Shown here: piece after piece, positions 10,945-56,508 of the stretch | How positions within the stretch are numbered: position 1 is the stretch's first letter | How the letters are laid out: every line of letters begins with the position of its first letter | Assembly: GCA_000004695.1 (NCBI GenBank) | Contig: CM000153.2 | Span: forward strand, 3,264,001-3,328,000 | Source: Dictyostelium discoideum | Taxonomy: Eukaryota | Length of the DNA: 64,000 nt | Direction of reading: 5' to 3' | The notes under the pieces: generated by a model | Told to the model about the DNA's origin: nothing | Seen by the model: the letters and a program-made list of their open reading frames with translations, nothing else | The model's database searches: none | Made by a program: the position numbers and the translations under genes

Positions 10945-11601
<657 letters not shown>

Positions 11602-11740: not shown

Positions 11741-13200
11741 AAGAATTAAAATGACATAGTGATTATTACATGTAAAAATTTTCAAAAAAAATAAAATAAA
11801 AGACATCAACAAAATACTAATTATTTGGAAAGATTTTATAAAAAACTACATGGTCATGACATGAAGCAAATGATTTGCGTACACCGTACAAGATGCAAAC
11901 AATATCAAAAAGTTGGAAATTAGTTTACCGCTACCACCACCAGAGAATTCAGAGTTTGAAACTTGTTAAGAAAGTGATAAAGATGGTGCTATGGTTTCCG
12001 TTGTCTCTCATAAAAATTTTGATGGTTGATGCACCTTCTCAAGCCCTACTGTTTCAATCAATCAAAAAAAGCAGGTATCTTTTAGATAATTAATTCAACA
12101 TTGAATATAAAAGAGATAAATTTAGCATATTGTTTTTTATTTTAAGGGGATAGGCCCCATTTTCAAAAAATGGCGGGGAACCTATGACCCTGTGTAAACC
12201 AAAGAATTCATTTAGTTTTTTGATTTAAAAATTAAAAAGAATAATAAAAAAAATAAAAATAAAATAAATAAAAAAAAGGTAATAACTATTTAATTAAATT
12301 ATTTATTCTGTCCTCTCATTTATCTTTTTTTTTAAAAAATAAAATTAGTAAACGAAAATAAAAAATCAATTTATTCCCTATTTGTTCATCAATATATATT
12401 TATATAAAATTTATTCCCTACTTGTTCTCCAAAATAAAAAAACAATTACAAAAAATGAATAATTAAATTCCTAAAATTTTTGGTTGAATATTCGAGTTTT
12501 ACGATTTCCCGAGGATTTAATATTAAAAAAAAAAAACAATTCATGACCAGCCCTAATCATAAAAAAACCACTAAAACATGCAAAGATTGGAAAAAAAAAA
12601 AAATAAAAATAAAAAAAAAAAACAAAATTAAAATAAATAAATAAAAGACACTTTCATTATAATTATAATTTTATTTTATTTTTTTTTATTTTGTTTTTTA
12701 ATTTTAATTTTTAGATATTGATAAAAACACAAAAGAAAAAAAAAAAAAATATTTTCGTTTTTATTTTCTTTTATTTTTTTTTTTAGTATTATTTAAAAAA
12801 AAAAAAAAAAATAATTTGTTTTATTTTTTTAATTTTTTTTTTTATTTTTGTTTTTTTTTTTCATTTTTTATTTATTTTTTTTTATTCACTATCTATTATG
12901 AATAGCAGAAATTATTCGATTGAAACCTCTTCAAATAAAATAATATACTTTTTTTTATTTTTTTTTTATTTAATTATTTTTTTTTTTAATTTCAAAAAAT
13001 AAAATATCCTCTCGTTGTTCTTCAAAATAAAAAATAAAATATAAAAAAAATAAATAAAAAAAATAATAATAATAAATAAAAAAATAAAAACTTTATTTAA
13101 TTTTATTTAATTTTTTTTTTTTTTTTTTTTTTCAACCAAAAACTAAATTTGTTTTTTATATTAAGACTGACTTAAATTGAGATTATTTTTATGGAAATAA

Positions 13201-13828
13201 TTATTCAGTTGGATAAATTTCAAAATATTCAATGGCATACTTATGATGAATGATTTATTTTTAAATTAGTACAACTTTTTTTAATCAATGTAAAAATAGT
13301 GAATAATATAATTATTATAACTTACTTTTCTAAGTTCTTCACGTGTAATACATTTGTCATCATCAGAATCCACATCTTCAAACATTGAGTTGGCCAAGAC
13401 TTTAGCTTGAGCTTCATTTGAACCACAAGTAACGAAAAATTGTCTGGCCTCATCCCAAGTAATTTTATTATCTTTATTTGAATCAGCCTATAAAATTTTA
13501 TTTATTTTTTTATTTTTAAAAATATTAAATTTCAATTACTATGTTTTTATGGGAAAGATTAATATTTATATATTTAATATATATATATTACATTAAAAAT
13601 AGTATCAACGAATTTTTTTAAACAATCTTCAGCTTTAATAATATAATCTACAAGTAATGCAGCTTTAACTTCATTAACCGAAAGTTTTCCATCTTTGTCA
13701 TGATCAAATAGTTCAAATAATGAATTGGTTGCCAAAGTTGGGTTTGGGTATTTGCATTTCTTGTACATGTCATTAATTTCTTTCTTTGAAAATTGGTTAT
13801 CACCATTTTTATCAAATGATTTAATCAT
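13201..13828 (-). CDS. EF-hand calcium-binding protein (4 EF-hand loops; Dictyostelium Cbp-like); exons 13592..13828, 13326..13487, 13201..13239 (last exon uncertain)
   Basis: [24 protein letters not shown]...[42 protein letters not shown] | [54 protein letters not shown] | [12 protein letters not shown]. Canonical 12-residue loops [36 protein letters not shown] and [12 protein letters not shown]. Donors GTAATA and GTAAGT. Confidence 0.6.
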
Positions 13829-14322
13829 TTCATTCTTTAATTTAAAAATATAAAATAAATTTTTTTTTTTTTTTTTTTTTTTTTTAAACGGTTCTTATAT
13901 TTTTAAGAACCCACACCAAAAATAAAAAATATTATAATTCCCATTTTTTTTTTTTTTATTTAAATTATTTTTTCCAAATTATATTCATTTTCTAATTTTT
14001 TACCCATTTAAAACAGTTTTCAAATAAGGTAAGAGTGTTTAAACTTTTTTTTTTTTTTATTTTTTTTTTTTTTATTTTTTTTATTTCCTTATATTGATTT
14101 TGTTTTTTTAAATTTAATTATTATTTTTTTTACAAATTGATTTTTTTTATTATTTTATTTATAATTATGTTGAATTTATGATTTTATATAATTTTATAAT
14201 AACAATCTTAACTTCAACACTTTAAATCTAAGCACAAAACCCAAAGTTAGAACTCCAGCTACCTAACAGTTATATATATATTAAAAAAAAAAATAATTAG
14301 AATTTAATTATTAATATAAATA

Positions 14323-14712
14323 TTATATAGATATATTATATTTTTTGATCAAAAAAAAAATAATAATAATAGTAATAATAATAATAATAATAAAATATAT
14401 GATACATACTAAAATCTCTTTTGAACTTATTACTCTTAAAAATACAGATACTAAATATTGAACTCTATTTGAATTTTCTAAATTCTCTTCCACTATTGGT
14501 TTAAATCCTTTGATTTTAAATGCTAATAGTCTACCATCAAAATTTGGTTGTGCAACTGATGATTCCAATACAATATAAGGTATGTAAAATATTGTTGGCT
14601 CATCATTTTTAGTTTCTTCACCATTATAACTAAAAATTTCAAAGTTATCAACACTGATTCCATAAATTCTCAAAAATGCAAGACTTACAAAGTTATCAAC
14701 ACTATTTGTCAT
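14323..14712 (-). CDS. Hypothetical protein, 5' exon(s); likely true start ATG at 14712 (MTNSVDNF...), GTATGT donor near 14411; 3' end not resolved
   Basis: The ORF track gives 14323..14733, but the first 7 residues come from an alternative start inside the repeat array. Translation is MTNSVDNFVSLAFLRIYGISVDNFEIFSYNGEETKNDEPTIFYIPYIVLESSVAQPNFDGRLLAFKIKGFKPIVEENLENSNRVQYLVSVFLRVIS. No homology recognised. Confidence 0.3.
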   Translation of the reverse strand: MTNSVDNFVSLAFLRIYGISVDNFEIFSYNGEETKNDEPTIFYIPYIVLESSVAQPNFDGRLLAFKIKGFKPIVEENLENSNRVQYLVSVFLRVISSKEILVCIIYFIIIIIITIIIIFFLIKKYNISI

Positions 14713-14905
14713 TAAAACTGAACTCAGTTGCAAATTTCATTTAACCAAAAACATACAAAGTTATCAACACTATTTGTCATTAAAACTGTACTGAGTTTGT
14801 TTCAAATTTCAATTTACAAAAGACATACAAAGTTATCAACACTATTTGCCCAATTTGTAAATTTAAGGGAAAGGGACACACAAAGTTATCAACACTATTT
14901 GTCCT
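14636..14905. repeat. Array of 5 dispersed-tandem copies (spacing about 53-72 bp) of the motif CAAAGTTATCAACACT(ATTTGTCAT); it is the reverse complement of ATGACAAATAGTGTTGATAACTTTG, i.e. the start codon plus first 8 codons of the gene at 14323..14712
   Basis: Direct read: copies at about 14637, 14690, 14757, 14829 and 14881 on the + strand. Copies 2 and 3 retain an intact ATG on the minus strand; copies 4 and 5 are degenerate (ATTTGCCCA, ATTTGTCCT). Confidence 0.75.
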
Positions 14906-15051
14906 TTGAAAAAAAAATTAATTTCTAAATTAAATAAAATAAAGTTAAAGTTTTCATTTAAAGTTTAAATTTTTTATTTTTTTATTTTTATTTACATTAT
15001 TTATTTATACAATTATATTTTTATTTTTATTTATACAATTTTATTTTTATT

Positions 15052-15333
15052 TTACAAGTAGATAGTTGAATATTCATCGTCATCGTAATAAAGGTCAGAA
15101 TCATATGTTGATTCAACACTTGACAAACTATTTATAGAATCTGATAGAGATTGTATTGTTGTTTTAAATGATAAATTATCCTTTCTTAATAATTCCATTT
15201 CTAATTTTAATTTTTTAATTTCTTGAAAAATTTTATCCTCTTGTTTTTCATTATTTTCTTTCATTGAATCAATTTCTTTATTAATAGAATGGAAATCATT
15301 TTTTAAAGATGTGATTACTTCTTTTAATGACAT
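15052..15333 (-). CDS. Hypothetical small coiled-coil protein (93 aa)
   Basis: MSLKEVITSLKNDFHSINKEIDSMKENNEKQEDKIFQEIKKLKLEMELLRKDNLSFKTTIQSLSDSINSLSSVESTYDSDLYYDDDEYSTIYL*. Heptad-rich, with an acidic C-terminus, flanked upstream by an (ATT)n microsatellite. No homology recognised. Confidence 0.35.
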   Translation of the reverse strand: MSLKEVITSLKNDFHSINKEIDSMKENNEKQEDKIFQEIKKLKLEMELLRKDNLSFKTTIQSLSDSINSLSSVESTYDSDLYYDDDEYSTIYL

Positions 15334-15341
15334 TATTATTA

Positions 15342-15355
15342 TTATTATAATTATA

Positions 15356-15454
<99 letters not shown>

Positions 15455-15455
15455 G
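15342..15455. repeat. (ATT)n / (TTA)n intergenic microsatellite of about 114 bp, followed by a (TATTTATT)n-like tract 15470-15535
   Basis: Direct read. Confidence 0.9.
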
Positions 15456-15502
15456 TATAATTTTTTTTATTTATTTATTTTTATTTATTTATTTATTTTT
15501 TT

Positions 15503-15533
<31 letters not shown>

Positions 15534-15816
15534 CAAATTTTAAAATAATAATACAACATGTAACTTTTTTAAGAGTTATTTTTATTTTACAAAATTATTG
15601 AAAAAAAAAAAAAAAACCAACAAAAAAAAAAATAAGAAAAAAAAATAAAATAATAATAAAATGAAATCACTGAATTGTTTCAAATTATTTTTAAAAAAAA
15701 CCCCTACGGTTTTTATTATAATCATTTTGATCAAAATTTTTTTTTTTTTTTTTTTTTTGGAAGTAAAAAACAATAATAATACAACAGAATTGATTTAAAA
15801 TAATCTCTTTTTAAAT

Positions 15817-17308
15817 TTAAAATTTATCAAGATTTTTAATTCTGCCACCCATTTGAATATCAACAGTGGAACCTTGAGGTCTTAATTCAATGTTATTTGT
15901 ATTTTTTTTTGAATTTCCATTCTTCTTCTTTTTAATTAAAACAATGGCAACAACAATAATTGCAATTAGTGCAAGACCACCTAGAATTGGACCAATGATA
16001 ACACCAATATTTGTTTTCTTTTTATTTTCAGAACCACAATCATCGCCATCATAATCTTCAACACATTGGCATTGACCAACTGTAGTATTACATAAACCAC
16101 CATTAAAACATGAAACTGAACAACTAACACCACTACAATCTATACCTTCATAACCTTGAGTGCATGAACATTCACCAACTGTTGTATTACATGAACCACC
16201 ATTTAAACATTGTGGAACTGTACAATCCTTTGTACCACAATTATCACCATAAAAGTCATTAATACATTGACATTGACCAACTGTTGTATTACATGAACCA
16301 CCATTTAAACATGAAACTGAACAACCAATACCACTACAATCTATACCTTCATAACCTTGAGTGCATGAACATTCACCAACTGTAGTATTACATGAACCAC
16401 CATTTAAACATTGTGGAACTGTACAATCCTTTGTATCACAATCATCACCATAAAAGCCATTTATGCATGAACATTCACCAACTGTTGTATTACATGAACC
16501 ACCATTTAAACATGAAACTGAACAACTAATACCACTGCAATCTACACCTTCATAACCTTGAGGACATGAACATTCACCAACTGTAGTATTACATGAACCA
16601 CTATTTAAACATGAAGCTGAACAACTAATACCACTGCAATCCGTACCTTCATAACCTTGAGCGCACGAACATTCACCAACTGTTGTATTACATGAACCAC
16701 CATTTAAACATTGTGGAACTGTACAATCTTTTAATTCACAATAATCACCATAATGATCATTTATACATTGGCAACCAGTGAGTGGATTACAAGTACCCCC
16801 ATTTAAACATTTTGTATCACAATTTGCATTTGGTTGACCAATGAATTTAATTGATTGTACTTGATTACCATATTTCATTAATATAGTTCTATTAAATAGC
16901 TGAGGTGACAATGAAACTGTTATTTTTGGTAAAACATCATTTGCAATTGATTTACTCTCATCACCAAATAATATTAATTCAATTCTAACTCTTGTATTAT
17001 TATTAAATGTTATTGAATATATTGAACTATCGAAACTAGGATCAATAATAAATTGATCTTCATTTGCTGGATTTTCAATTGTTAATGTAACAATTCTAAT
17101 TGCGCATTGTCCAACTTCTGAATTAATATTATTTTCAAATAATTTATAAATTGAGTTTGACATTGGATTTGGTTGAAATAATTTACTAATTATTGAAATT
17201 GAACCAATCGAAGTTTGACCATATATTGTATAAATATCTAAATATGAACCTGTTACTAATATAGATGCTGTCTGATAGAATAGAATTATTTAAAAGTTAA
17301 TAATAATG

Positions 17309-17391
<83 letters not shown>

Positions 17392-18948
17392 TGATTTAAT
17401 ATAATATTACTTACAATATCATCAATACCATCAGAGTTATAATCACCAATATCAATAGCCGCAGCATAGCCATTAATTGACATTTTTGAACAATCACCAA
17501 CTTGATCTTTTAAATAAATTGGATTTGAAGCATAATTTTTATTATTACCATACAAAATGGTGAATGGGATGTCAGTGTTACCACTGAATAAAAAATCTGC
17601 AAATCCATCATTATTTATATCCCCCAATCTAGGAGAAAAAGCCCAGCTATAGATGTTGCCAACAACTGCTATAACCAAACCATCCGATGGATTTAGATTT
17701 ATACTTAATGTTGTTGTTGGTGGATATTCTGTTTTACCCAAACCAAAAAAGCTATATAGTCACCCCCCGAAGTAAGTCTTGTAAGAATCTAAAATTATTT
17801 AATAAAATGTAAAAATAAGTATAATAACAATAAAGAATAATAAAGAATAAGAATAATCAAAAAATAATAAAGAATAAATTACACCAAAATCATTTAGTCC
17901 ATCATTATTAAAATCTCCAAAAGCATTTGGATGAACATTATTATTTGTTGTGCAACCTAAAAAGCTGAAACTGGTACCTTTGACACCATCATAAACTGGG
18001 ATATATGGTGAGGTAAAAGGGCCTCTACTACCATAAATAATATCGATTGCTATCTGTCCCCTATTTATCATTATATCACCAATCCCATCATTATTCATAT
18101 CATAAGGATAAGCCGCATATGAATTGAAATTATTAATTAAAAAACCATTACTCCCATTTAATGTTGAAGGGTCAAATTCAAACTGTGAATTAACTTGAAA
18201 TTTACCACCGTTTATACCAAATATCATATATGAAATTGGTGTTCCTGAAGTTGCATAAGTTCCTATACTTGCAGAGACCTAAAAAAAAAAAAAAAAAAAA
18301 AATATGTGTTAATACCCATGTGAATACCCCTTTTAAAAACAAAATAAAAAAATAAAAAAAATCTGTACCTACAAATAAATCTTTAATTGAGTCACCATTG
18401 AAATCAATGATTGATCTTACAAACCCAAATGCAATATTAGAGGACGAAACGTGAGAAATATAGAAACCATTATTACCATTCACTGTCGAAAAAGTAGAAG
18501 GTGATATAATTTGATCAGTACCATAGATAACACAAAGTTTTCCTGGTATAATATGTAAAAAAAGAGCAATATCGTCAAACCCATCATTATTTATATCACC
18601 AACAGCTATATTATTCATTCGAACAGTAGCATTTAAAAAAATAAAACCATTTGAACCGTTGATCTTTGATATGTCTGTTTGAAAATTAAAATTACTTGCT
18701 AATGGCCCATAAAATACATATAGTCCTTCTGAATTTATAGCATATATCAAATCATCATTACCATCACCGTTCAAGTCTCCATGTGCAATTGAAATTAAAC
18801 TTCTGCCTTCTGTTATTAAAAACCCATTTATTGAATTAATTTGAGAAAATGATGTTGGAAAAATTGAAATTACAACATTGAAATTATAATTTAAAATATA
18901 AAATAAAAATAAAATATAAAAAAAGTTTACCTTATATTTTTCTGTCAT
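15817..18948 (-). CDS. Type-I transmembrane adhesion-receptor-like protein: signal peptide, roughly 7 FG-GAP (integrin-alpha-type beta-propeller) repeats, 7 tenascin-type EGF repeats, TM helix, short basic tail. Four exons (minus): 18373..18948, 17883(or 17885)..18278, 17415..17728(or ..17751), 15817..17271
   Basis: FG-GAP signatures across exons: IAHGDLNGDGNDDLIYAI...YVFYG, IAVGDINNDGFDDIALF...VIYG, DFNGDSIKDLF, AFGDFNNDGLNDF, LGDINNDGFADFLFS...ILYG and DIGDYNSDGIDDI|TASILVTGSYLDIYTIYG. The terminal exon has 7 near-identical units CLNGGSCNTTVGECSC.QGYEG.DCSGISCS.SCLN, then TM IGVIIGPILGGLALIAIIVVAIVLI and KKKKNGNSKKN... The exon 2/3 junction is ambiguous: all three frames carry stops between 17741 and 17788, leaving either a GTGTAA phase-1 donor plus AACAG|AA acceptor, or an unrecognised micro-exon. 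Intron 3 contains an (AAT)n run. Confidence 0.7.
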
Positions 18949-19530
18949 TTTTTGTTAAAAAGGTAACTTTTTTTTCTGATTTTGAATTTTATCGAAATGT
19001 ATTAAATGCTTTTTTTTTTTTTTTTTTTTAAAAAAAATAAGGTCCGTTTTCTATTTTTTACACAAACGACGGTTTTTTTTTTTTTTGGCGAAAAAGATAT
19101 TTTTAAAAAATAAAATCTTTTATTTTGATTGAATTTTAAAATAATCACATGATAATTTCTTTAAATTTTAATATTTAAAAAAAAAAAAAAAATAAAAAAA
19201 AACAAAACTTTTTAAAATAATCATTTTAATTTTAAAACAAAAAAAAAAAAATTATATATAACTTTTGAAAATAAAAAAATAATTTTTTTTTTAATAAAAC
19301 CAATTCAAAACATTATTTAAATTAAACCAAGATAAAAAATTTTTAAAATAGATTTCAAATTTTTATAAAATAATATCCAACAATTTTTGACATTCGATCG
19401 TTTGCCAGATTTTCAAATAATATTTTTTTTTTTTTTATTTTTTTTTTTTTATTTGTTTTCTAAAAAATTGGAAAATATCTTCATCCATAAAATTTGTTAT
19501 TTGATTAAATTTAATTACAACTTTATTTAT

Positions 19531-19911
19531 TTATTTACAAATTTTCTTTTTTAATTTTTTTTTTTTTTTTTTTTTATTGATAAAACCTTTACATTTCTTT
19601 AAATAAAAACCATCATCTTCTTCAATTTCTTCAGCCCATTCAAAGATTGCCTCTTCAGAGATAACATCATTTTCATCACAAAAATCTTGAATTTTAAAGA
19701 TAAGATCTACCATACTATCTTCTCTTGAGAATTTAACCAACAATAAAACTGGTAAAATACTTGTTAAACAATCTAAACCATCTCTATCATAAGCGAATTT
19801 CAAACCATTGATTTCTAATTGAATATTCTCTAAAGGTAATTTCTCTATAATACCACGTCTAATTGTATCACCAACTTCACGATGAAATTTAACTGAATCA
19901 GGTTCAATTGG

Positions 19912-20007
<96 letters not shown>

Positions 20008-20217
20008 GTTGTTGTTGTTATTGTTATTGTTACAATTTGAACCTGTCATACAAATTACTTGAACACCTGGAAGATCATGCCATCTTGATGATTGAATATA
20101 TTCTTTAATTTGTGATGCATGTGCACAACAAAATACAAATATTTGTTGTACTCCTGATGCTGCTAAAAATTCTAATGTATAATCTAATAATGGTATATTA
20201 ACTAATGGTAATAATGT
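19531..20217 (-). CDS. eIF2B-epsilon-like ORF: N-terminal nucleotidyl-transferase fragment plus C-terminal W2 (AA-box) domain joined by an Asn tract of about 45 residues. It lacks the central left-handed beta-helix region and has no in-frame ATG before the NT-domain fragment. Truncated paralog or pseudogene-like remnant; first ATG is at 20049.
   Basis: Open frame from acceptor TTTAAATAG|ACA (20217): [62 protein letters not shown](N)45[118 protein letters not shown]. From memory, the N-terminal part matches human EIF2B5 [38 protein letters not shown] and the C-terminal part matches ENIVLEINSLKYAYN. No upstream coding exon is detectable in 20218..20317 before the T67 run. Confidence 0.45.
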
Positions 20218-20315
20218 CTATTTAAAAAAAAAAAATAATATATTAGCATTTTAATCTTGAATTTCACCCCTCTAATTGGGTTGAGTGTTTTTGGATTTTA
20301 ATTTGAATTCCCGAG

Positions 20316-20317
<2 letters not shown>

Positions 20318-20384
<67 letters not shown>
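20318..20384. repeat. Homopolymer T(67) in the divergent intergenic region
   Basis: Direct read; 67 consecutive T on the + strand. Confidence 0.95.
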
Positions 20385-20414: not shown

Positions 20415-21075
20415 ATGATTCAAAACGCATTTTTATATTTAAAGATAATCATTCTGATAGTAATAACAAATAATGTAAACTCACAATTAATTGATATTTA
20501 TTTCAGTAATAGTTATGATGATTTAAATGGTAATGGCACCATATCAAACCCATATCAAAATTTATGTTTACTTAATCAAATTTTAAATTCAAATAATAAT
20601 AATAATAATAATAACGATAATATAAATAGTTCAATAATAATAATAAATATTGATTATGGTGATTACAATTTAAATTGTTCATCATTTTTAATAATAAATA
20701 ACTTTAATAATATTTCATTCATACCTTATAAATCAAATAATAATAATAATAATAATGAAATTGTAAATTTAAATAATATAACCACATTAAAGATACTTAA
20801 TTCAAATTTAGGATTTGATGGGTTAATAACAATAATAACGAATCAAATAGAGATTTCATATAGTAGAATCATATTCAACAATGGATCAAAACTTTATTTC
20901 AACATAGAAAGATATGAACATTCAACACACTTTCAATGCTCAAATATTACATTTTCAAATTCAACATTTCTTTTAAAAAGAGATGAAAACTACCTTGTAT
21001 CAGAATCTAGTTCATTCGAATTTTTAGATTCATCTTTAGAAAATATATCTTTAATATTTAATAATAACCTATATT

Positions 21076-21153
<78 letters not shown>

Positions 21154-24100
21154 GTATTGGTAATAGTAGTAGAATTAGTAGTGGTAGTAGTAGTAGTAGT
21201 TATTTTTTATCAATGTTTAATTGTAATGCAACATTGATTTATTTCAGGATGAATGGATTTGGAAATGTTTTAATTAATAATTCATTATTAAATGATATAT
21301 CAATTAGAATAGAAGGTAGTTTTATAGTTAATATTAATAGTTCAGATATTTATGCAACTTCATTAGATCCACTTTTCATGGTGGCGAATATGGATATAGA
21401 AAGATCACTTTTAAATATAATAAATTCAAATATTTACTATTTAAATGATTCTGAGTATCCTTTAGCAATTATAGTTAAAAATAGTTTACTAAATATAAGT
21501 GGTTGTAATATAAATGGAAACTTTAAAAGAATTTATCCTCAAGCATTAATAAATGTTGCTGGTACTCCTTCATCATCATCATCAAATGATAGTAGTAGTG
21601 GTAGTAGTAGTAGTAGTAGTTGTATAGATAATGAAGCTTTATTAATTTTAGAGAATTCAAAGATTTCAAATTTTAATTCACCAAATAAATTTATTTTTTC
21701 AATTTGTTCAACTATTTTTATAAATAATATTACATTTTATTCAAATTCATACTCAACATTTTTATATATTAATAGTAGTAGTATTGTTAATTTAGATAAT
21801 ATTATAATGAAATGTGATGATATGAATAGATTTGAATATTTATTTTTAGCACTACCATCATCGTCATCATCATCATCATCAAATATAACAATTAATAATG
21901 TTTATATGAGTTGTGTTGGTATGTTTGAATTTGAAAATTGTAGAATTGAAATTTCAAATTTTAGTTTAGAATCATTTTCAAAACCTTCAACTATTAGGCT
22001 AAGTCATTCAAGTGAATTAATAATTAGGAATGGTGTTTTTATTTCAAGTATATTCAAAATTAAATCTTTTATGTTTTATTTAGAGCAGAATAGTAGGTTG
22101 GTCATTATAAATTGTCAATTTATAGATAGCACTACCAATATTATTTTCTCAAGAAATTCAGAAACAGTTTTACAATATTCAAATTTTTCAAATATAATAC
22201 CATATGGTGGTGGCAGTGGTGGTGATACATTTAATTCAAATTCAATTTTCTACTTTTCAAAAAGTTTATTACAAATTGAAAATTGTAATTTTAATCAAAC
22301 TCAAACTTTATCATCCCTATTTTATATGGAATTTTCAGAGAATGTAATTATAAAATCAACAAGATTTGAAAGAGTTGGTGATACTATTTTAAAAAGTTAC
22401 TTTTCAAACAACAATATTATCATTGATGATATTTATGTAGTGAATTGTAGTACTACACAGAGTGAGTTATTCTTTTTAACGTTTAATGAAAATGTTGTAA
22501 TTGGAAATTCAACTTTTAAAAATAATCATGGTATTGGTTATACTTTATTTACTATTAATGGTTGTTTACATTTTGAAATTAGTAAAACAATGATTTCAGA
22601 TAACTCTTTCTCATCAATTTTTAAAGAATCAAATTCAAATGCCATTCTACTAAATTCAATAATCTCAAATGGTAATACAGTTGATGATTTTTATAAATCT
22701 TCAAATTGTTCTTCCCTTTCAATTGATACTTTTAATTTTACAAATAATTATGTTAATTCAATATTCACAATAAATAAAATCACATCCAAAATTCAACTTT
22801 CAAATATTATAATTACAAATAATTATTTCACTAAAATAATTACAAAATTTAATCAATCTATAGTTGAAATTAATAATTTAACATTTATAGACAACATATT
22901 AATTGCACCTCAAAAATATGATTTGGATGGTGGTGGTGGTAGTAGTGGAGGTGGTGGTGGTGGTGGTGGATTATTCTTTGAAAATTGTCAAGTTATTTCT
23001 AAAGGTTTACAAATTTTAAATAATGAAATTTCAGTTAATTTAATTAATTTAAATGATTCTATATTATTAATTTCAGATGGTTTATTTGAAAATAATCAAA
23101 TTTCATCAAATTTTATTCATTCTGATTTTTCAACTGTTGCTTTATTTAATACAAAGGTATTGCATAATCAAGGTGGTGATGGTGGTGGTTCAACTTTATT
23201 TGTTATTCATAATTCAAATATTAATATAAGTGATTGTGAATTCTCTTTTAATAATCTTTATAAAAATGGTATGGGTTCAATTATTAATTTTGATAAATAT
23301 TTAAATAAATTTACTTATTTTCAAATTGAAAATACTTTATTTTCTTTCAATATTGCTAAATTTGGTCAATTATACTTTTCAGGTTATCCAAATGATCAAG
23401 ATGCATTTACAAATAGTAAAAATACATTTTCAAATAATACATTAATTTCAAATCATGCATCTTCACAAGGTGGTGCTATCTTTACAGAAAATTTCATTTT
23501 CTCTTTAAATATTTCAAATATTTTAAATTCAAATCATTTCGATAATAATACTTCATTATGTGGTGATAATTTCTCTTCAAGTATGTATTATTGTTTTTAT
23601 TTTTATTTTTATTTTTATTTTTAATAATTCTAATTTTTTTTTATTTTTTTTTATTAGGTTTAAAAGAAATTATTTTCATAGAAACTAATGGTACATTTTT
23701 AGTAAATGGAGTTGGAACTATTATCAATTATAATGCAGTGGATTTTTATAATAATGTATTCACCACATTATCTTCACCAATTCAAATTAGTATTACAAGT
23801 TTATCAAATAATGAAACACTGGTATTCACTGAAATGATTATTGGTGGTAAAGGAAGTTTTTTACATACTTTTATAGGACCACTTTATGAAAGATTTAAAA
23901 TTGAATTAAATTCCATACCATACTATTCAAATGTTTATTTAACACTTGGTGGATGTTTACCATTTCAATATATGAATAATTTAACATGTGAATATTGTCC
24001 AATAGGTTCATCATATAGTAATTCAATAGGTCAATGTTTTAAATGTAATCCTAATGCAGTGACATGTGTTGGTTCATTTGTAAATGTAAATACTGGATAT

Positions 24101-25240
24101 TATATGATCGATAATGAAATCTCAATGGTTGAACGATGTGCAAACGATATGTGTCTCTCAAATAATCAATGTCAATTTAAATATAGTTCAGGAGATTTAT
24201 GTTTCAGTTGTTTAGATCCAGACTCATCAACACCAACATTCATAGCAGCTAAACATGGAATTAATTGTTGTTCCCAATTTAAAGTATGGTTAATTGTACC
24301 ATTATTATTATTATATTTAGTTTCAGCATTAGTTCTCTCAATAATCAAATTAAATTTATTCACAACAATAATTGGACCAATAATAGTATTCCTTCAAATT
24401 AATTCAGTAGTTTTCTTTTCTTATAATGGTATTTACATTTTAGCATTCTTTAGAGTATCATTAGATATTTTAGATGGAATTTGTATTTTCAAAGGATTAA
24501 ATCATGGAGATAAAACATTAATTATATTATTAATTATAATAATAATGTTTTTAATTTCTTCAAGTGATTGGCTTCCTTTATGGTTATTTAGAAAATTAAA
24601 TTCAAATTTTAAATTATACAATTATTTAAAAAGAAATTTAAAAAAGAATAGAAATTTAAAGAAATCATCATCAACAACTCAACTTAATTATTTTATTAGA
24701 TCAAGATGGCAATTATTTCAAATCTTTATTATTCCATTAATATTCAATTCATTTACATTGATAATACCAAAGAAAATTAAAGATCAAACATTATTATTAG
24801 TAGATTTTTCAATTTTATTTGGATCATGGCAGAGTATAATTCAAATTTTCATTTCAGTTTTAGTAATAATATCAGCAATGGTATTTTTAATATTAAAATA
24901 TCAATTTTACAGCAAGGGTAAACTAAAGTTGTGGAGTTTCATTATAATTTTAAGATCAGTTTTATTTTCAATTCTATCAATTACATCAATTTTTAGCGAT
25001 AATGAATTTTATATGCCATCGATTATTCTAATTCAAATAGTCTATTCAAGTATTTACTTGTATTTGAAACCTTTAAAAGAAAAAATTGATAATAGTAATT
25101 TTATAAATTTAATTCAAATAATTATCTTTCTTTTCGCAGATTCAAGATTATTCCAACCAATTTCTCCCCATTATCTTGGCTTAATTTTAACTATTTTAAT
25201 TATTATTTTAAATTTATTTATAATAATAAAAACCTTTTAA
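20415..25240 (+). CDS. Paralog A of tandem family: signal peptide + large Asn/Ser-rich Pmp-like (GGAI / FxxN) beta-helix-type ectodomain + Cys-rich module + roughly 9-10 TM C-terminal domain (1582 aa); exons 20415..23580 and 23658..25240
   Basis: MIQNAFLYLKIIILIVITNNVNS|QLIDIYFSNSYDDLNGNGTISNPYQNLCLLNQILNS...; ...SSQGGAIFTENFIFSLNISNILNSNHFDNNTSLCGDNFSS. Donor TCA A|GTATGT, 77-nt intron, acceptor TTATTAG|GT, giving S-LKEIIFIETNGTFLVNGVG...CEYCPIGSSYSNSIGQCFKCNPNAVTCVGS...CANDMCLSNNQCQFKYSSGDLCFSCLDPD..HGINCC, then multiple TM helices. The two ORF-track ORFs 20415..23624 and 23591..25240 are joined by this intron. Confidence 0.75.
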
Positions 25241-25562: not shown

Positions 25563-26256
25563 ATGATACATAATTTATATTTAAAGATAATCATTCTTTT
25601 ATTAATAATAAATAATAATGTAAACTCACAAATAATTGATATTTATTTCAGTAATAGTTATGGTGATTTAAATGGTAATGGCACCATATCAAACCCATAT
25701 CAAAATTTATGTTTACTTAATCAAATTTTAAATTCAAATAATAATAATAATAACGATAATAACGATAATAAAAATAATTCAATAATAATAATAAATATTG
25801 ATTATGGTGATTACAATTTAAATTGTTCATCATTTTTAATAATAAATAACTTTAATAATATTTCATTCATACCTTATAATTCAAATAATAATAATAATAA
25901 TAATAATGGAATTGTAAATTTAAATAATTTAACCACATTAAAGATACTTAATTCAAATGTTAAATTCGATGGGTTAATTAAAATCACAATAACAATTATA
26001 GAAAATGAAACGGAAATTATAAATAGTGATATATTATTGAATAATGGGGTAACTCTTTATTTTATCAAAAATTACCAACTAACCAACAGTGAATTTCAAT
26101 GTTCAAGTATTAAATTTTCAAATTCAAAATTTATTTCAAATTGGTCACAAAATGATGTATCTATTTATTTTAATTCAGATTCCAGCTTATTTGAATTTCA
26201 AAATTCTTTAGTAGAAAATGTATTTTTAAAATTTAATAATATAAAAAATTGTAGTA

Positions 26257-26287
<31 letters not shown>

Positions 26288-29200
26288 GAATGAAATTAAT
26301 TTTTTAACATTTAATAATAGTAATATCAAAGATTGTTATTTTGCAACTAGTGGTTTAAATTCAATTTTTAATAATTCTTTATTAGATGGTTTAAAAATGA
26401 ATATTGGAGCAAGTAGTATAGTAACAATTCTCAACTCTAAATTATATGCAAAACCAGATTCTATTTTAGGAACTTTTCTAATTACCAATGTTGATCAAAG
26501 TACAAAACCATCAGTTTTAAATATAGTTAATTCAAATATTTACCATTTACAAGATTCTCGTTATTCATTAATTATGCTATTTATAAATTCATTTGTAAAT
26601 ATTAGTGGTTGTACAATTGAAGGTAGGGAAACAATAGTTCAAACACCAATTGTATTAATTGGAATACCAAATAGTAGTGGTGGTGGTGGTAATAATAATA
26701 ATCAAGTGATACTAGTTTTAGAGAATTCAAAGATTTCAAATTTAATTTCACCAAAAGATTTTATCAATTCATTTAGTTCTACCGTTATTATAAATAATGT
26801 TCAATTTTATTCAAATTCATTTTCAACAATTATTTCATCAAGAGGGTCAACTTCTTTTAATCTTTATAATATCATTATTACATGTGATCAAAGGAATATA
26901 TTTACATCAATTATTAAAATGCCATCATCGGAAAATGATTTATATTCAAATTTGACATCTTTTATAGATTTTAATAATGTTTATATGGGTTGTGTTGGTG
27001 GATTTGAATTTCAAAATTCAAAAATCCAAATTTCAAATTTTAGATTAGAATCATCTTCAAAACCTTCAATATTTAGTTTAATTTTAAATAGTGAATTAAC
27101 AATTATTAATGCCACTTTTATTTCAAGTATATTTGATCAATCTCCTTCAATTTTTTATATTAATTCAAGTAAATTAACAGTTTTACAAAGTGAATTCAAA
27201 GATAGTACCAACTCTATTCTATCTTTATATGGTGGTTCAACAGCAACCTTTCAATCAACCAATTTTTCAAGTATAATAACCTATGAAAGAGTTCCAATTT
27301 TTAATAGTAGTTCAAGTTCATTATTTATTGAAAATTGTAGTTTTTTTGAAATTCAAACTTCAGTTTCATCATTATTCAATTGTTTTGATTGTGATAATTT
27401 AACTATAAAGAATTCAATATTTGAAAGAGTTGGTGATATCATTTTAGATTGTTTCAATACAAAACTAATAATTATTGATTCTATAAATGTTTCAAATTGT
27501 AGTTCACAAACAGGTTTATTCTATTTTTCAAATAATAGAAATGGTAGTAGTATTATCACAAATTCTTCATTTATAAATAATCATGGTATCGGTGTTACAC
27601 TATTTAATATATTTGAATCAAATTTTGAAATTAGTTCAACAGATTTAATAGATAACACATTTTTATCAATATTTGATGAATCATTTTCAAATGTAACAAT
27701 TGAACGCATTTACGTTACAGGTACAACTGGAATTTTTTATTCTGCTTTAAATTCAATATCGATTTTAGTTGATGGTTTAGATTTTAAAGATAATTATGTC
27801 ACCTCTGTATTTACTATTAATCAAGCTAATAAAATTGAATTTTCAAATATAGCAATTTATAAAAACTATTTCATAGATGGTGTAAATGTTATGATGATTA
27901 GTCTTTGTACATTGGAAATCAATAATTTTAATTTTATGGAAAATGTTTTAATTGCACCACCTAAATCAGAACAAACTAGTGGTGGCGGTAGTGGTGGTAG
28001 TGGTAGTGTTGGTGGAGGATTAATTTTTCAAAATTCTAATGTCATTTTCAATGATTTACAAATTTTAAAAAATGAAATTTCAGTTAATTTATTTAATTGT
28101 ATTAACAATACATTATTATCAATTACAGGTGGTTTATTTCAAAATAATAAAGTTTCATCAAGTTTTATTTTTTCTGAAATTTCAGTAATCAATTTAATTA
28201 GAACACATCTATTGCATAATCAAGGTGATAGTTCAACTTTATTAATGTTGTATGCTTCAAACATCAATGTGAATTATTGTGAATTCTCTTTTAATAATAT
28301 TTATCAAAATGGTAGTGGCTCAATATTAAATTTTAAAAGAAACTTGGAAACACACGAGTATTTAGGAAACTTTCAAATTGAAAATACTTTATTCTCTTTA
28401 AATATTGCTAAATTTGGTCAATTATACTTTTCAGGTTATCCAAATGATCAAGATGCATTTACAAATAGCAAAAATACATTTTCAAATAATACACTAATTT
28501 CAAATCATGCATCTTCACAAGGTGGTGCTATCTTTACAGAAAATTTCATTTTCTCTTTAAATATTTCAAATATTTTAAATTCAAATCATTTCGATAATAA
28601 TACTTCATTATGTGGTGATAATTTCTCTTCAAGTATGTATTATTATTATTTTATTTTTGTTCATTTTTTGGCCAATCTAACTTTTTTTTTATTTTTTTTA
28701 TTAGGTTTAAAAGAAATTATTTTCATAGAAACTAATGATACATTTTTAGTAAATGGAGTTGGAACTATTATCAATTATAACGCAGTGGATTTTTATAATA
28801 ATACATTAACAACATTATCTTCACCAATTCAAATTAGTATTACACGTTTATCAAATAATGAAATTCAAACTTATTCAGAAGCAATTTTAAGTGGTAAAGG
28901 AAGTTTTTTACATACTTTTATAGGACCACTTTATGAAAGATTTAAAATTGAATTGTATCTCAAACCATATTATTCAAATGTTTATTTAACACTTGGTAAA
29001 TGTTTACCATTTCAATATATGAATAATTTAACATGTGAATATTGTCCAATAGGTTCATCATATAGTAATTCAATAGGTCAATGTTTAAAATGTAATCCTA
29101 ATGCAGTGACATGTGTTGGTTCATTTGTAAATGTAAATACTGGATATTATATGATCGATAATGAAATTTCAATGGTTGAACGATGTGCAAACGATATGTG

Positions 29201-30374
29201 TCTTTCAAATAATCAATGTCAATTTAAATATAGTTCAGGAGATTTATGTTTCAGTTGTTTAGATCCAGACTCATCAACACCAACATTCATAGCAGCTAAA
29301 CATGGAATTAATTGCTGTTCCCAATTTAAAGAATGGTTAATTGTACCATTATTATTATTATATTTAGTTTCAGCATTAGTTCTCTCAATAATTAAATTAA
29401 ATTTATTCACAGAAACAACAATAATTGGACCAATAATAGTATTCCTTCAAATTAATTCAGTAGTTTTCTTTTCTTATAATGGTATTTACATTTTATCATT
29501 CTTTAGAGTATCATTAGATATTTTAGATGGAATTTGTATTTTCAAAGGATTAAATCATGGAAATAAAACATTAATTACACTATCAATAATAATAATAATG
29601 TTTTTAATTTCTTCAAGTGATTGGCTCCCTTTATGGTTATTTAGAAAATTAAATTCAAATTTTAAGTTATACAATTATTTAAAAAGAAATTTAAAAAAGT
29701 ATAGAAATTTAAAGAAATCATCAACAACTCAGTTTAATTACTTTATTAGATCAAGATGGCAATTATTTCAAATCTTTATTATACCATTAATATTCAATTC
29801 ATTTACATTGATAATACCAAAGAAAATTAAAGATCAAACATTATTATTAGTAGATTTTTCAATTTTATTTGGATCATGGCAGAGTATAATTCAAATTTTC
29901 ATTTCAGTTTTAATATTATCATTGGTAGTTTTAGTTATAATAATAAAACATTTCTATTACAGCAACAAAAAAAATCAATGGAATATTAATCTTAAGCAAA
30001 ATGGAAAGACATTATCTTTTAAAAGAATTTTATTAGTAGTTAAAACAATTTGTTTCATCTTTCTTTTAGGTTCATGGGATTTTATTATTATAAGATCATT
30101 TTTATTTTCAATTTTATCAATAGCTTTGATATTTAGCGATGGTAATTTATTTTTACCATCAATTATTTTAATACAAATCATTTATTCAATTATTCAATTT
30201 TTGTTGAATCCTTTCAAAAAAAAGGTTCATAATCTTATTAATTTAATCCAACTTATAATCTTTTTTTTTGCAGACTCAAGTTTATTCCACCCAATTACTC
30301 CTTTCGCTTTGGGATTAATGCTAACTATTTTAATTATTATTTCCCCTTTTTTTATAGCAATTGGAAATAAATAA
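25563..30374 (+). CDS. Paralog B of the same family (1579 aa); exons 25563..28632 and 28705..30374. The 72-nt intron has no stop and is a multiple of 3, so the ORF track shows one fused 1603-aa ORF.
   Basis: MIHNLYLKIIILLLIINNNVNS|QIIDIYFSNSYGDLNGNGTISNPYQNLCLLNQ.... The last roughly 550 nt of exon 1 and exon 2 are almost identical at nucleotide level to paralogs A and C; the central region is diverged. Intron position is conserved (TCA A|GTATGT ... TTATTAG|GT). Confidence 0.75.
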
Positions 30375-33333: not shown

Positions 33334-38185
<4,852 letters not shown>

Positions 38186-56059: not shown

Positions 56060-56130
56060 TGCGTATGCTGGGAATCGAACCCAGTTCGCATCCGTGGCAG
56101 GGATGCATCATACCACTAGACCACATACGC
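56060..56130 (-). tRNA. tRNA-Gly (anticodon GCC)
   Basis: Minus-strand sequence GCGTATGTGGTCTAGTGGTATGATGCATCCCTGCCACGGATGCGAACTGGGTTCGATTCCCAGCATACGCA: 7-bp acceptor stem GCGTATG/CATACGC, D-arm TGGTCTAGTGGTA, anticodon stem CATCC/GGATG with loop CTGCCAC (GCC), T-arm GGGTTCGATTCCC. Confidence 0.9.
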
Positions 56131-56205
56131 TTTTTTGATGAATTTTCAGTTCCAATAGAAAAATTTGGGGCATTTTAATTTAGTATGGTACTTTTTAAAA
56201 GGAAT

Positions 56206-56278
56206 CGCCTAGACATGGGATCGAACCATGGACCTAGCGGTTAACAGCCGCTCGCTCTGCCTACTGAGCCATCCAGGC
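56206..56278 (-). tRNA. tRNA-Asn (anticodon GTT)
   Basis: Minus-strand GCCTGGATGGCTCAGTAGGCAGAGCGAGCGGCTGTTAACCGCTAGGTCCATGGTTCGATCCCATGTCTAGGCG: acceptor GCCTGGA/TCTAGGC (one G-T pair), anticodon stem AGCGG/CCGCT with loop CTGTTAA (GTT), T-arm CATGGTTCGATCCCATG. Confidence 0.85.
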
Positions 56279-56508
56279 ACTTTGGATATTTTTGTTCGTA
56301 AAATATCCAGGTTTTTTTTTTAATATTTTGAAATTAAAAAAAGTTTTGTAAATTTTTGATTGTAATAAATTTTTAAAATTCAAAAATGAAACCAATAACA
56401 TTTTAAATTCAAAAAAAAATGTTTCAGTGATCCACACTGGACTGATTTCTAAACAAGAAGAGGTGATTAAATAAAAAAATTTATACATCCATTAAGTTTT
56501 ATTAATTT

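What the first reader, a model, noticed from the sequence alone, without database searches (positions are those of the whole stretch)
19531..20317. eIF2B-epsilon-like gene remnant: N-terminal nucleotidyl-transferase fragment and C-terminal W2 domain joined by Asn(45), missing the catalytic core and any upstream start exon
The open frame 20217..19531 encodes about 57 aa homologous to the start of the eIF2B-epsilon NT domain ([41 protein letters not shown]), then 45 Asn, then about 120 aa matching the eIF2B-epsilon C-terminal W2/AA-box region ([15 protein letters not shown]...[15 protein letters not shown]). The roughly 400-aa central part (rest of the NT domain plus hexapeptide beta-helix) is absent. 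The NT fragment has no in-frame ATG. The first Met is MTGSNC just before the Asn run. No coding exon is visible in the 100 bp between the acceptor at 20217 and the T67 tract. This looks like an internally deleted paralog or pseudogene of the eIF2B catalytic subunit. If expressed from the internal ATG it could be a free W2-domain protein (possible eIF2-binding decoy).
Basis: partly seen in the sequence, partly recalled or inferred. Interest (0 to 1): 0.6.

Follow-up and report, generated by a model that had tools for sequence, protein, structure and literature searches.

The report
Degraded duplicate of eIF2B-epsilon gene
This is a broken, almost certainly non-functional leftover copy of the Dictyostelium discoideum eIF2B-epsilon gene, sitting inside a 7.8-kb piece of DNA that strain AX4 has and one wild isolate lacks; the intact gene lies elsewhere on the same chromosome, so the finding is an ordinary pseudogene.

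Summary
The open frame 20217..19531 (-) exists and derives from eIF2B-epsilon. Its retained blocks match the full-length AX4 protein (Q54RF3, 707 aa) at every residue but one. Exon 1 is absent, and residues 110-522 are replaced by 40 Asn (not 45). The W2 domain has also lost 33, 17 and 3 residues and its last 25 (AA-box 2), all at microhomology or repeat junctions. The copy begins inside parental intron 1, so it was copied as DNA. It is one end of an inverted, decayed copy of a 4.6-kb parental segment running from eif2b5 intron 1 through a CBP4-type EF-hand gene to just upstream of pyruvate kinase. An unrelated 5.2-kb block carrying an FG-GAP/EGF gene interrupts it. The 7.8-kb insert is bounded by the window's only two TTCCCGAG copies and is missing at the same site in wild isolate ACTFIW. 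There is no start codon for the N-terminal piece, four out-of-frame ATGs precede the internal Met, and no matching protein is on record. Verdict: an unprocessed pseudogene fragment in a strain-variable segmental duplication. A free W2 decoy is very unlikely. Interest is low.

The parts
20218..20303 (-). Copy of the 3' part of parental eif2b5 intron 1, including the polypyrimidine tract and the TAG acceptor next to 20217. Homology starts about 20 nt downstream of the parental 5' splice site.
   Evidence: blastn and alignments to parental loci L001 and L004. In the multiple alignment of intron 1 from five parental genes, the remnant is closest to the ACTFIW-type allele.
20032..20217 (-). Block A: the first 186 nt of parental exon 2 (residues 48-109, TLLPLVN...MTGSNC), a fragment of the nucleotidyl-transferase-like domain.
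   Evidence: 185/186 nt identical to three D. discoideum parental genes. 62/62 aa identical to AX4 eIF2B-epsilon. The single nucleotide difference is the ancestral allele retained in the remnant.
19912..20031 (-). (AAY)40 tract encoding 40 Asn. It replaces parental gene positions about 420-1743: the rest of exon 2, intron 2 and most of exon 3, i.e. residues 110-522.
   Evidence: The right end grades into the parental AATAATAAAAATAATGATGATAAT. The left 27 nt, AACAATAACAATAACAACAACAACAAT, have no donor in any sequence held.
19741..19911 (-). Block B: parental residues 523-579 (PIEPDS...LPVLL), the first three predicted helices of the W2 domain, including the invariant Glu of the LEINGLK motif.
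   Evidence: 170/170 nt identical to the ACTFIR and ACTFIW parental genes. Helices come from the AlphaFold model of the parent.
19669..19740 (-). Block C: parental residues 613-636 (LVKFS[S>R]ED...CDEN). It follows a 99-nt in-frame deletion (residues 580-612) whose junction has the 3-nt microhomology ATT.
   Evidence: The only two remnant-specific substitutions (TTA>TTG synonymous, AGT>AGA Ser>Arg) lie 3 and 18 nt into this block.
19579..19668 (-). Block D: parental residues 654-669 and 673-686 ([16 protein letters not shown] / [14 protein letters not shown]). It follows a 51-nt deletion (residues 637-653) between two copies of ATGAAAATGA, and contains a 9-nt deletion inside a GAAGAAGAT tandem.
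   Evidence: No mismatches to the parent apart from the 9-nt gap.
19531..19578 (-). Unrelated A-rich tail, [15 protein letters not shown] plus stop. Homology to the parent ends at GGTTTTATC|, so the last 25 parental residues (DWLKSAEEESDD..., AA-box 2 and the acidic tail) are lost.
19531..20049 (-). The only ATG-initiated reading of the remnant: a 172-aa ORF, MTGSNC-N40-partial W2. Four out-of-frame ATGs lie upstream, at 20249, 20120, 20083 and 20078.
   Evidence: This exact product is not in the 15-billion-protein collection.
12514..20315 (.). The 7.8-kb strain-variable insert that contains the remnant. It is present in AX4 and absent at the orthologous site of D. discoideum isolate ACTFIW.
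   Evidence: L002 (ACTFIW) is collinear with the window up to 12513 and again from 20305, with nothing in between.
12506..12513 (+). Border repeat copy 1, TTCCCGAG. Here 7 nt (TCCCGAG) are shared between the target site and the donor end (the parental sequence reads ...AAATCCTCGGGATAG).
   Evidence: The motif occurs only twice in the 64 kb, against 0.16 expected.
20308..20315 (+). Border repeat copy 2, TTCCCGAG. Here donor and target overlap by the 3 nt TTC. The ACTFIW empty site has a single copy of the motif.
12507..14345 (-). The far part of the same duplicated parental segment. It covers the intergenic DNA, a CBP4-type EF-hand gene relic (exon 2 at 13840-13592, exon 3 at 13487-13323; exon 1 and promoter missing) and DNA up to about 190 bp upstream of the parental pyruvate kinase gene.
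   Evidence: blastn to L001 12550-14777, L004 and L005. Exon comparisons are, EF-hand Pfam hits. The parental neighbour begins MVTKKEF like CBP4a (PMC3637376).
14346..19575 (-). A 5.2-kb block unrelated to the parental locus. It takes the place of only 310 bp of the parent and cuts off the 3' end of the remnant. It carries an apparently intact FG-GAP/EGF-repeat gene (18948..15817) and a 93-aa coiled-coil ORF (15333..15052).
   Evidence: No similarity to any fetched locus or to the rest of the window.

Best explanation
The feature is an unprocessed (DNA-copied) pseudogene fragment of eif2b5, the D. discoideum eIF2B-epsilon gene.

How it arose. About 4.6 kb of the parental locus was copied in inverted orientation into the intergenic region between a MIX23-like gene and a large beta-helix-like gene on the same chromosome. 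The copied stretch runs from about 20 nt inside intron 1 of eif2b5, through the downstream CBP4-type EF-hand gene, to just upstream of pyruvate kinase. Both outer junctions use short homology between donor and target (7 nt and 3 nt), and they leave the 8-bp target motif TTCCCGAG on each side. Because the copy never contained exon 1 or the promoter, it was non-functional from the start.

What happened to it. The eif2b5 part lost 413 codons, now bridged by an (AAY)40 microsatellite. It also lost 33, 17 and 3 codons at junctions with a 3-nt microhomology, a 10-nt direct repeat and a 9-nt tandem repeat. Its 3' end was cut off by a 5.2-kb unrelated block. The EF-hand copy lost its first exon.

What is shown and what is inferred. 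Shown: the homology, the breakpoints, the border repeats, the absence in one isolate and the existence of a full-length parent. Inferred: the insertion arose by microhomology-mediated template switching or break repair rather than transposition; the internal deletions arose either in that same event or later by slippage; and the locus produces no functional protein.
For: - Retained blocks are almost identical to the parent: 62/62 aa for the N-terminal block against AX4 eIF2B-epsilon, and 515/518 nt over the four coding blocks against the ACTFIR and ACTFIW parental genes.
- A full-length parent exists in AX4 (Q54RF3, 707 aa) and in every other isolate or species examined.
- Intron-1 sequence is retained and homology continues into the parental downstream gene in the same order and orientation. 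This means a genomic DNA copy, not a retrocopy.
- The insert is absent at the orthologous ACTFIW site.
- TTCCCGAG occurs only at the two borders, with 7-nt and 3-nt donor/target overlaps.
- The internal deletion junctions carry ATT, ATGAAAATGA and a GAAGAAGAT tandem.
- Exon 1 and the start codon are absent, upstream out-of-frame ATGs are present, and the missing core is nowhere else in the window.
- The deletions remove predicted W2 helices and AA-box 2.
- No protein from this locus appears in the exact look-up, and none appears among the 150 best of 754 hits in the 1.84-billion-representative search.
- The neighbouring EF-hand relic carries 9 relic-specific changes spread 3/3/3 over codon positions, as expected for neutral decay.
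Against: - The frame stays open for 228 codons in DNA of about 20% GC, and all deletions are in frame. I estimate this at roughly 1 in 9 by chance, because two of the junctions lie in codon-phased repeats. It is still the kind of pattern a selected ORF would show.
- The eif2b5 blocks carry fewer remnant-specific substitutions (2/518) than the EF-hand relic exons (9/411; Fisher p = 0.014). This could mean some constraint or gene conversion by the parent rather than plain neutral decay.
- I had no expression data.
- The AX4 parental DNA could not be retrieved, so remnant-specific changes were counted against other isolates.
- Only one other isolate could be examined at the insertion site. Insertion in the AX4 lineage versus precise loss in ACTFIW is therefore not settled.
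Confidence: 0.85

Rival explanations
1. The locus is expressed from the internal ATG (20049) and makes a 172-aa protein: poly-Asn plus a partial W2 domain. This protein would act on translation initiation, for example as an eIF2-beta-binding decoy like the eIF5-mimic proteins, or as an Asn-rich aggregation-prone modifier.
For: - The ORF is open and every deletion is in frame.
- Only one non-synonymous change occurs in 173 retained codons.
- The invariant residues E534, E555, E658 and W664 of the W2 domain are retained.
- Substitutions are fewer than in the adjacent EF-hand relic (p = 0.014).
- The remnant lies about 100 bp from a T67-containing divergent promoter region.
- AlphaFold still draws helices for the C-terminal part (pLDDT 71-95 per 10-residue block over residues 101-228), but this says nothing about stability.
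- Free W2-domain regulators exist (5MP; PMC3201852, PMC12439599).
Against: - Two predicted W2 helices, most of the last helix and all of AA-box 2 are deleted, including the invariant W688/L689 and the acidic CK2-type tail. AA-box 2 is described as important for eIF2-beta binding (PMC12439599).
- Removing one helix from each of two helix pairs is hard to reconcile with a HEAT-type fold (my inference).
- Four out-of-frame ATGs precede the Met.
- The whole insert is absent in a wild isolate.
- No such protein is in the collections.
- With only three nucleotide differences there is no statistical power to show purifying selection.
Confidence: 0.04
2. The remnant matters as RNA, not protein. A transcript driven by the neighbouring bidirectional promoter would share 78- to 186-nt stretches nearly identical to eif2b5 mRNA. 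It could feed the RNAi pathway or act as a competing RNA that modulates the parent gene.
For: - The stretches shared with the parent are 170-186 nt long and 99.5-100% identical.
- The remnant sits head-to-head with the gene that starts at 20415.
- From general knowledge, Dictyostelium has an active RNAi machinery.
Against: - There is no evidence of transcription.
- The remnant has the same sense as the parental mRNA, so it would need antisense transcription to give double-stranded RNA.
- It is absent in ACTFIW.
- Nothing in the sequence distinguishes it from a passive relic.
Confidence: 0.05
3. The structure is an assembly or cloning artefact of the AX4 reference, not a real locus.
For: I could not retrieve an independent AX4 assembly over this position. 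The region is rich in low-complexity DNA.
Against: - Mis-joining parental reads cannot produce the remnant-specific features: the (AAY)40 bridge, three clean microhomology deletions and two private substitutions.
- The insert contains 5.2 kb of unique DNA and a diverged EF-hand relic (7-8% nt from the parental alleles).
- The borders are clean, with a duplicated 8-mer.
Confidence: 0.03

Closest known systems
eIF2B-epsilon (EIF2B5 / Gcd6; D. discoideum Q54RF3)
   Same: It is the direct sequence source. Residues 48-109, 518-574, 607-630, 648-663 and 667-680 of the AX4 protein are reproduced with a single amino-acid change.
   Different: It lacks exon 1 and the start codon, 413 residues (the rest of the NT-like domain and the whole beta-helix), two W2 helices, AA-box 2 and the acidic tail. 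It cannot assemble into eIF2B or carry out nucleotide exchange (inference and from PMC4787765).
Unprocessed (duplicated) pseudogenes and gene relics inside segmental duplications
   Same: It is a DNA-level copy that keeps intron sequence and the neighbouring gene in parental order. It was truncated at the edge of the duplicated segment and then further deleted, and a functional parent exists elsewhere.
   Different: There are no frameshifts or stop codons, and point divergence in the coding blocks is very low (0.6%). The damage is all deletions plus a microsatellite bridge.
Microhomology-mediated templated insertions (FoSTeS/MMBIR-type or synthesis-dependent break repair)
   Same: Donor/target overlaps of 7 nt and 3 nt at the outer junctions. 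An 8-bp target motif is duplicated at the borders. Several internal junctions use 3-10 nt repeats, a foreign 5.2-kb block lies inside, and both private substitutions sit within 18 nt of one junction.
   Different: The mechanism is inferred from the scars only. The internal deletions could equally be later slippage events in a repeat-rich, AT-rich genome. The donors of the 5.2-kb block and of the AAC-rich start of the Asn tract were not found.
eIF5-mimic proteins (5MP1/5MP2, BZW1/2): free W2-domain regulators of eIF2
   Different: 5MPs have a complete W2 fold with both AA-boxes and are conserved genes. The remnant has a gapped W2 without AA-box 2, has no evident promoter or favourable start context, and is dispensable in at least one isolate.

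Membership tests
eIF2B-epsilon (functional subunit) | Complete N-terminal nucleotidyl-transferase-like domain with its own start codon | tested here: not met
   Only residues 48-109 are present. Exon 1 (residues 1-47) and residues 110 onward are absent. There is no in-frame ATG before codon 57 of the frame. The Pfam NTP_transferase score of 14 bits is below the 21.2 cut-off.
eIF2B-epsilon (functional subunit) | Left-handed beta-helix (hexapeptide) domain | tested here: not met
   The domain lies entirely within the 413 residues replaced by N40. tblastn finds no other piece of it in the window.
eIF2B-epsilon (functional subunit) | Intact C-terminal W2/HEAT domain with AA-box 1 and AA-box 2 | tested here: not met
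   Residues 580-612, 637-653, 670-672 and 687-711 of the parent are missing. The invariant W688/L689 and the nearly invariant Y651, A692, E694 and E695 are lost. The Pfam W2 score of 22.4 bits is below the 30 cut-off.
Unprocessed (duplicated) pseudogene | Close homology to a functional parent gene elsewhere in the same genome | tested here: met
   AX4 has the full-length protein Q54RF3. The remnant is 99.4% identical in nucleotides over 518 coding positions to the parental genes of two isolates.
Unprocessed (duplicated) pseudogene | Copied as genomic DNA: intron and flanking-gene sequence retained, no retrocopy hallmarks | tested here: met
   The 3' part of intron 1 is present. The parental downstream EF-hand gene and intergenic DNA follow in parental order. 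The deletion boundaries are not GT..AG (my reading).
Unprocessed (duplicated) pseudogene | Disabling lesions | tested here: met
   Loss of the promoter, exon 1 and the start codon; a 1.3-kb deletion; three further deletions; 3' truncation. No frameshift or premature stop is present, however.
Unprocessed (duplicated) pseudogene | No functional expression | not testable with these tools
   No RNA-seq, ribosome-profiling or proteome data were available. The only indirect evidence is that no protein from this locus is in the collections.
Free W2-domain eIF2 regulators (5MP-like decoys) | Complete W2 fold with AA-box 2 able to bind the eIF2-beta K-boxes | tested here: not met
   AA-box 2 and the acidic tail are replaced by a Lys-rich tail, and two internal helices are deleted. 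The importance of AA-box 2 is taken from PMC12439599.
Free W2-domain eIF2 regulators (5MP-like decoys) | Conserved, independently expressed gene | tested here: not met
   Absent at the orthologous site of isolate ACTFIW. Four out-of-frame ATGs lie upstream. Expression itself was not testable.
Transposon-mediated gene capture | Terminal repeats or transposase/integrase-related sequence in the insert, with a target-site duplication | tested here: inconclusive
   The 8-bp border repeat is present. One copy overlaps 7 nt of the donor sequence, which fits microhomology joining better. Pfam found no transposon-related domain in the ORFs that were scanned. The repeat scan gave only low-complexity matches.

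The most novel reading that the evidence does not exclude
The remnant is kept open because AX4-type strains express the 172-aa product: an Asn40 tract fused to a cut-down W2 domain that still carries the catalytic-motif Glu and AA-box 1. This product would interfere with, or sequester, eIF2 or eIF2B, giving a strain-specific modifier of the integrated stress response that arose from a gene fragment.
Probability: 0.04. Interest if true: 0.6.

Novelty: new member of a known kind. Interest (0 to 1): 0.15.

Why it matters
It matters little for translation biology. The cell has an intact eIF2B-epsilon gene, and this copy lacks what the protein needs to work.

It has modest value in three ways:
- As an annotation point: the ORF should not be called a gene, nor a second eIF2B-epsilon.
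- As a clean example of structural variation in D. discoideum. A 7.8-kb mosaic insert differs between the laboratory strain AX4 and a wild isolate. Its outer junctions carry 7-nt and 3-nt donor/target homologies, three of the deletion junctions inside the eif2b5 remnant lie in 3-10-nt repeats, and an (AAY)n microsatellite bridges a 1.3-kb deletion in frame.
- As a marker: the presence or absence of the insert could help trace strain relationships.

Tried and rejected
1. Retrocopy (processed pseudogene). Considered because an A21 run follows the point where homology ends (19576-19556) and an A67 run lies upstream. Rejected because intron 1 sequence is retained, the copy starts inside the intron, and the downstream parental gene is also copied.

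2. Deletions as aberrant splicing of a source transcript. Rejected because no placement of the 99-nt or 51-nt deletion gives GT..AG ends (my reading).

3. Old duplication with the eif2b5 part kept similar by gene conversion. This was suggested by 97-99% identity in the eif2b5 blocks against about 78% in the EF-hand region. It was mostly dissolved by calibration:
   - The EF-hand gene and intron 1 are hypervariable between isolates. The EF-hand exons differ by 4.9% nt between ACTFIR and ACTFIW, against 0/518 in the eif2b5 blocks.
   - A residual excess remains (p = 0.014) and is left open.

4. Purifying selection on the remnant. Three differences (two synonymous, one non-synonymous) give no power.

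5. Finding the remnant or its locus in more strains failed:
   - The first word-indexed protein search missed even the parent.
   - The AX4 parental protein is not retrievable as DNA.
   - A 93-aa ORF inside the insert is not on record.
   - The D. citrinum locus fetched (L003) turned out to start about 1.3 kb short of the orthologous site.

6. Searches for a donor of the 5.2-kb block and of the AAC-rich start of the Asn tract found nothing in the sequence held.

7. AlphaFold of the remnant draws helices with fair confidence. It cannot judge whether a HEAT domain missing two helices is stable, so I did not use it as evidence either way.

8. Literature searches found no paper dealing with eIF2B-epsilon in Dictyostelium or with a duplicate of its gene.
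Full report
**Organism and locus.** The window has about 20% GC, with long homopolymer and AAT runs. Two of its ORFs are exact matches to D. discoideum AX4 proteins DDB_G0285491 and DDB_G0285497. The window is therefore D. discoideum AX4, or an AX4-identical assembly.

**The observation.** On the minus strand a stop-free frame runs from 20217 to 19531. It reads as follows:
- 62 residues, TLLPLVN...MTGSNC
- 111 residues in three blocks
- a Lys-rich tail and a stop

The first part aligns to human eIF2B-epsilon residues 67-120 and the later part to 548-612, with a gap before 672-699 (E about 5e-20). Pfam gives sub-threshold NTP_transferase and W2 hits. The first in-frame Met is at 20049, giving a 172-aa ORF.

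**The parent.** An exhaustive HMMER search returned eIF2B-epsilon proteins, with the dictyostelid cluster on top. A second search gave full-length proteins from D. discoideum, D. citrinum, D. dimigraforme, D. purpureum and others. The AX4 protein is Q54RF3 / XP_639192.1, 707 aa.
- The remnant's first block is 62/62 identical to residues 48-109 of that protein.
- Over all retained blocks there is one amino-acid change, KFSSED to KFSRED.
- tblastn with the full-length protein finds nothing else in the 64 kb. The missing parts are therefore not hidden nearby.

**Breakpoints at DNA level.** The parental locus of isolate ACTFIR (L001) has exon 1 at gene positions 1-141, intron 1 at 142-232, exon 2 at 233-541, intron 2 at 542-629 and exon 3 at 630-2315. 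The remnant aligns to it as follows:

| Window | Parental gene positions | Note |
|---|---|---|
| 20303/20298-20218 | 3' part of intron 1 | copy begins inside the intron |
| 20217-20032 | 233-418 | 185/186 identical |
| 20031-19912 | replaces about 420-1743 | (AAY)40 |
| 19911-19741 | 1746-1915 | 170/170 identical |
| junction | 99 nt missing | microhomology ATT |
| 19740-19669 | 2016-2087 | two differences |
| junction | 51 nt missing | between two copies of ATGAAAATGA |
| 19668-19579 | 2139-2237 | minus one copy of a GAAGAAGAT tandem |

Homology ends at GGTTTTATC, so the last 25 codons are lost. All deletions are multiples of three. Two of the junctions lie in codon-phased repeats, so I estimate the chance of an all-in-frame result at about 1 in 9. 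That is not remarkable.

**Effect on the protein.** An AlphaFold model of the ACTFIR parent (P0162; 37-sequence alignment, mean pLDDT 74.5) places W2 helices at 527-544, 549-562, 567-580, 595-616, 622-635, 637-652, 658-670, 677-681 and 683-692. Mapping the deletions onto this model gives these losses:
- the loop and most of helix 595-616
- all of helix 637-652
- most of helix 683-692 and the acidic tail

The lost residues include the invariant W688/L689 and the nearly invariant Y651, A692, E694 and E695. Retained invariant residues are E534, E555, E658 and W664.

AA-box 2, which is lost here, is described as important for binding the eIF2-beta K-boxes (PMC12439599). A model of the remnant itself still shows helices, but that does not speak to stability.

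**The wider structure.** The remnant is not an isolated fragment. Window 12507-14345 matches, in the same inverted orientation, the DNA that follows eif2b5 in the parental locus. That DNA comprises intergenic sequence, a 162-aa EF-hand gene and sequence up to about 190 bp before the next gene, which is pyruvate kinase in the ACTFIW and ACTFIY parental loci.
- The parental EF-hand gene begins MVTKKEF, like CBP4a (PMC3637376).
- The window copy keeps exons 2 and 3 but lacks exon 1 and the promoter.
- Between the two parental pieces lie 5.2 kb (14346-19575), where the parent has only 310 bp. This block carries an FG-GAP/EGF-repeat gene and has no match in any sequence I hold.

**Strain variation and junctions.** In wild isolate ACTFIW the orthologous region (L002) is collinear with the window up to 12513 and again from 20305. 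The 7.8 kb in between is absent.
- The empty site carries one TTCCCGAG.
- AX4 carries two copies, at 12506-12513 and 20308-20315. These are the only two in the window, against 0.16 expected.
- At the first border the donor itself ends in TCCCGAG, a 7-nt overlap. At the other border donor and target share TTC.

This pattern fits microhomology-mediated joining of a templated copy better than transposition. Pfam found no transposon-related domain in the insert ORFs that were scanned. The T67 run (20318-20384) lies outside the insert, in the promoter region of the gene starting at 20415. ACTFIW has about 40 T there.

**Age.** Differences over the 518 aligned coding positions are as follows:

| Compared with | Differences |
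|---|---|
| ACTFIR and ACTFIW parents (identical to each other) | 3 |
| 'cf. discoideum' ACTFIY | 6 |
| D. citrinum | 20 |
| D. dimigraforme | 30 |

- One site is a derived state shared by the remnant and the two D. discoideum parents, to the exclusion of ACTFIY and the outgroups.
- At another site the remnant keeps the ancestral base.
- Only two changes are private to the remnant, and both lie within 18 nt of the 99-nt deletion junction.

The copy therefore arose within the D. discoideum lineage. The low identity first seen in intron 1 and the EF-hand region is largely explained by calibration. These regions are hypervariable between isolates, and the remnant's intron resembles the ACTFIW-type allele.

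A modest excess remains: 9/411 private changes in the EF-hand relic exons, spread 3/3/3 over codon positions, against 2/518 in the eif2b5 blocks (Fisher p = 0.014). Chance, mutation-rate differences, gene conversion by the parent or weak constraint could each explain it. I cannot separate them without the AX4 parental DNA, which was not retrievable.

**Coding potential.** The copy starts in intron 1, so the acceptor at 20217 has no upstream donor or exon. A transcript entering from the border would meet ATGs at 20249, 20120, 20083 and 20078, all out of frame, before the in-frame ATG at 20049. The 172-aa product is not in the protein collection. None of the 150 best hits listed by the representative search looks like it.

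**Conclusion.** The feature is an unprocessed pseudogene fragment of eif2b5. It forms one end of a decayed, mosaic, strain-variable segmental duplication.
The decoy half is very unlikely.
- The mechanism of origin is inferred from junction scars, not demonstrated: template switching or break repair with microhomology, with the internal deletions arising either in the same event or later by slippage.
- Whether ACTFIW never had the insert or lost it by recombination between the 8-bp repeats is open.
- Literature searches found no paper dealing with eIF2B-epsilon in Dictyostelium or with a duplicate of its gene.

Noticed in passing
window 15817-18948 (-): An apparently intact four-exon gene encoding FG-GAP repeats followed by about eight EGF/teneurin-type repeats and a transmembrane segment. 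It lies inside the strain-variable insert. It is absent from this site in isolate ACTFIW, and no related sequence exists in any locus fetched.
   Followed up: partly
window 13323-13840 (-): Relic of a CBP4-type EF-hand gene (exons 2 and 3 open, exon 1 and promoter missing), copied together with the eif2b5 fragment. Its 9 private nucleotide changes are spread evenly over the three codon positions.
   Followed up: partly
L001:13275-14026, L004:9251-9999, L005:9112-9888, L007:8805-10961: The CBP4-type EF-hand gene next to eif2b5 varies strikingly. Its exons differ by 4.9% nt between two D. discoideum isolates that are identical over 518 nt of eif2b5. There are two tandem copies in D. dimigraforme, and none is called in D. 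citrinum.
   Followed up: partly
window 20318-20384: An uninterrupted T67 homopolymer upstream of the gene starting at 20415. The same position in isolate ACTFIW has about 40 T, so the run length is polymorphic.
   Followed up: partly
window 20415-25240, 25563-30374, 33334-38185 (+): A tandem family of about 1,560-1,600-aa proteins rich in Asn/Ser runs, with no Pfam hit in AX4. A D. citrinum member hits PF13229 (Beta_helix). The same array is present in ACTFIW and D. citrinum.
   Followed up: partly
window 56060-56130 and 56205-56279 (-): A closely spaced pair of tRNA genes, tRNA-Gly(GCC) and tRNA-Asn(GTT).
   Followed up: no
window 14680-14922: Four tandem copies of a repeat of about 70 nt (core ACAAAGTTATCAACACTATTTGTC) near the edge of the 5.2-kb foreign block.
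   Followed up: no
window 15052-15333 (-): A 93-aa ATG-initiated ORF with coiled-coil character inside the foreign block. It is not on record as a called gene product.
   Followed up: partly
window 10945-11601 (-): A MIX23-like gene whose Asn tract is much longer in AX4 (about 31 Asn) than in ACTFIW (NNNNNNNKNNKNNN). This is another example of in-frame AAT-repeat length variation between strains.
   Followed up: no
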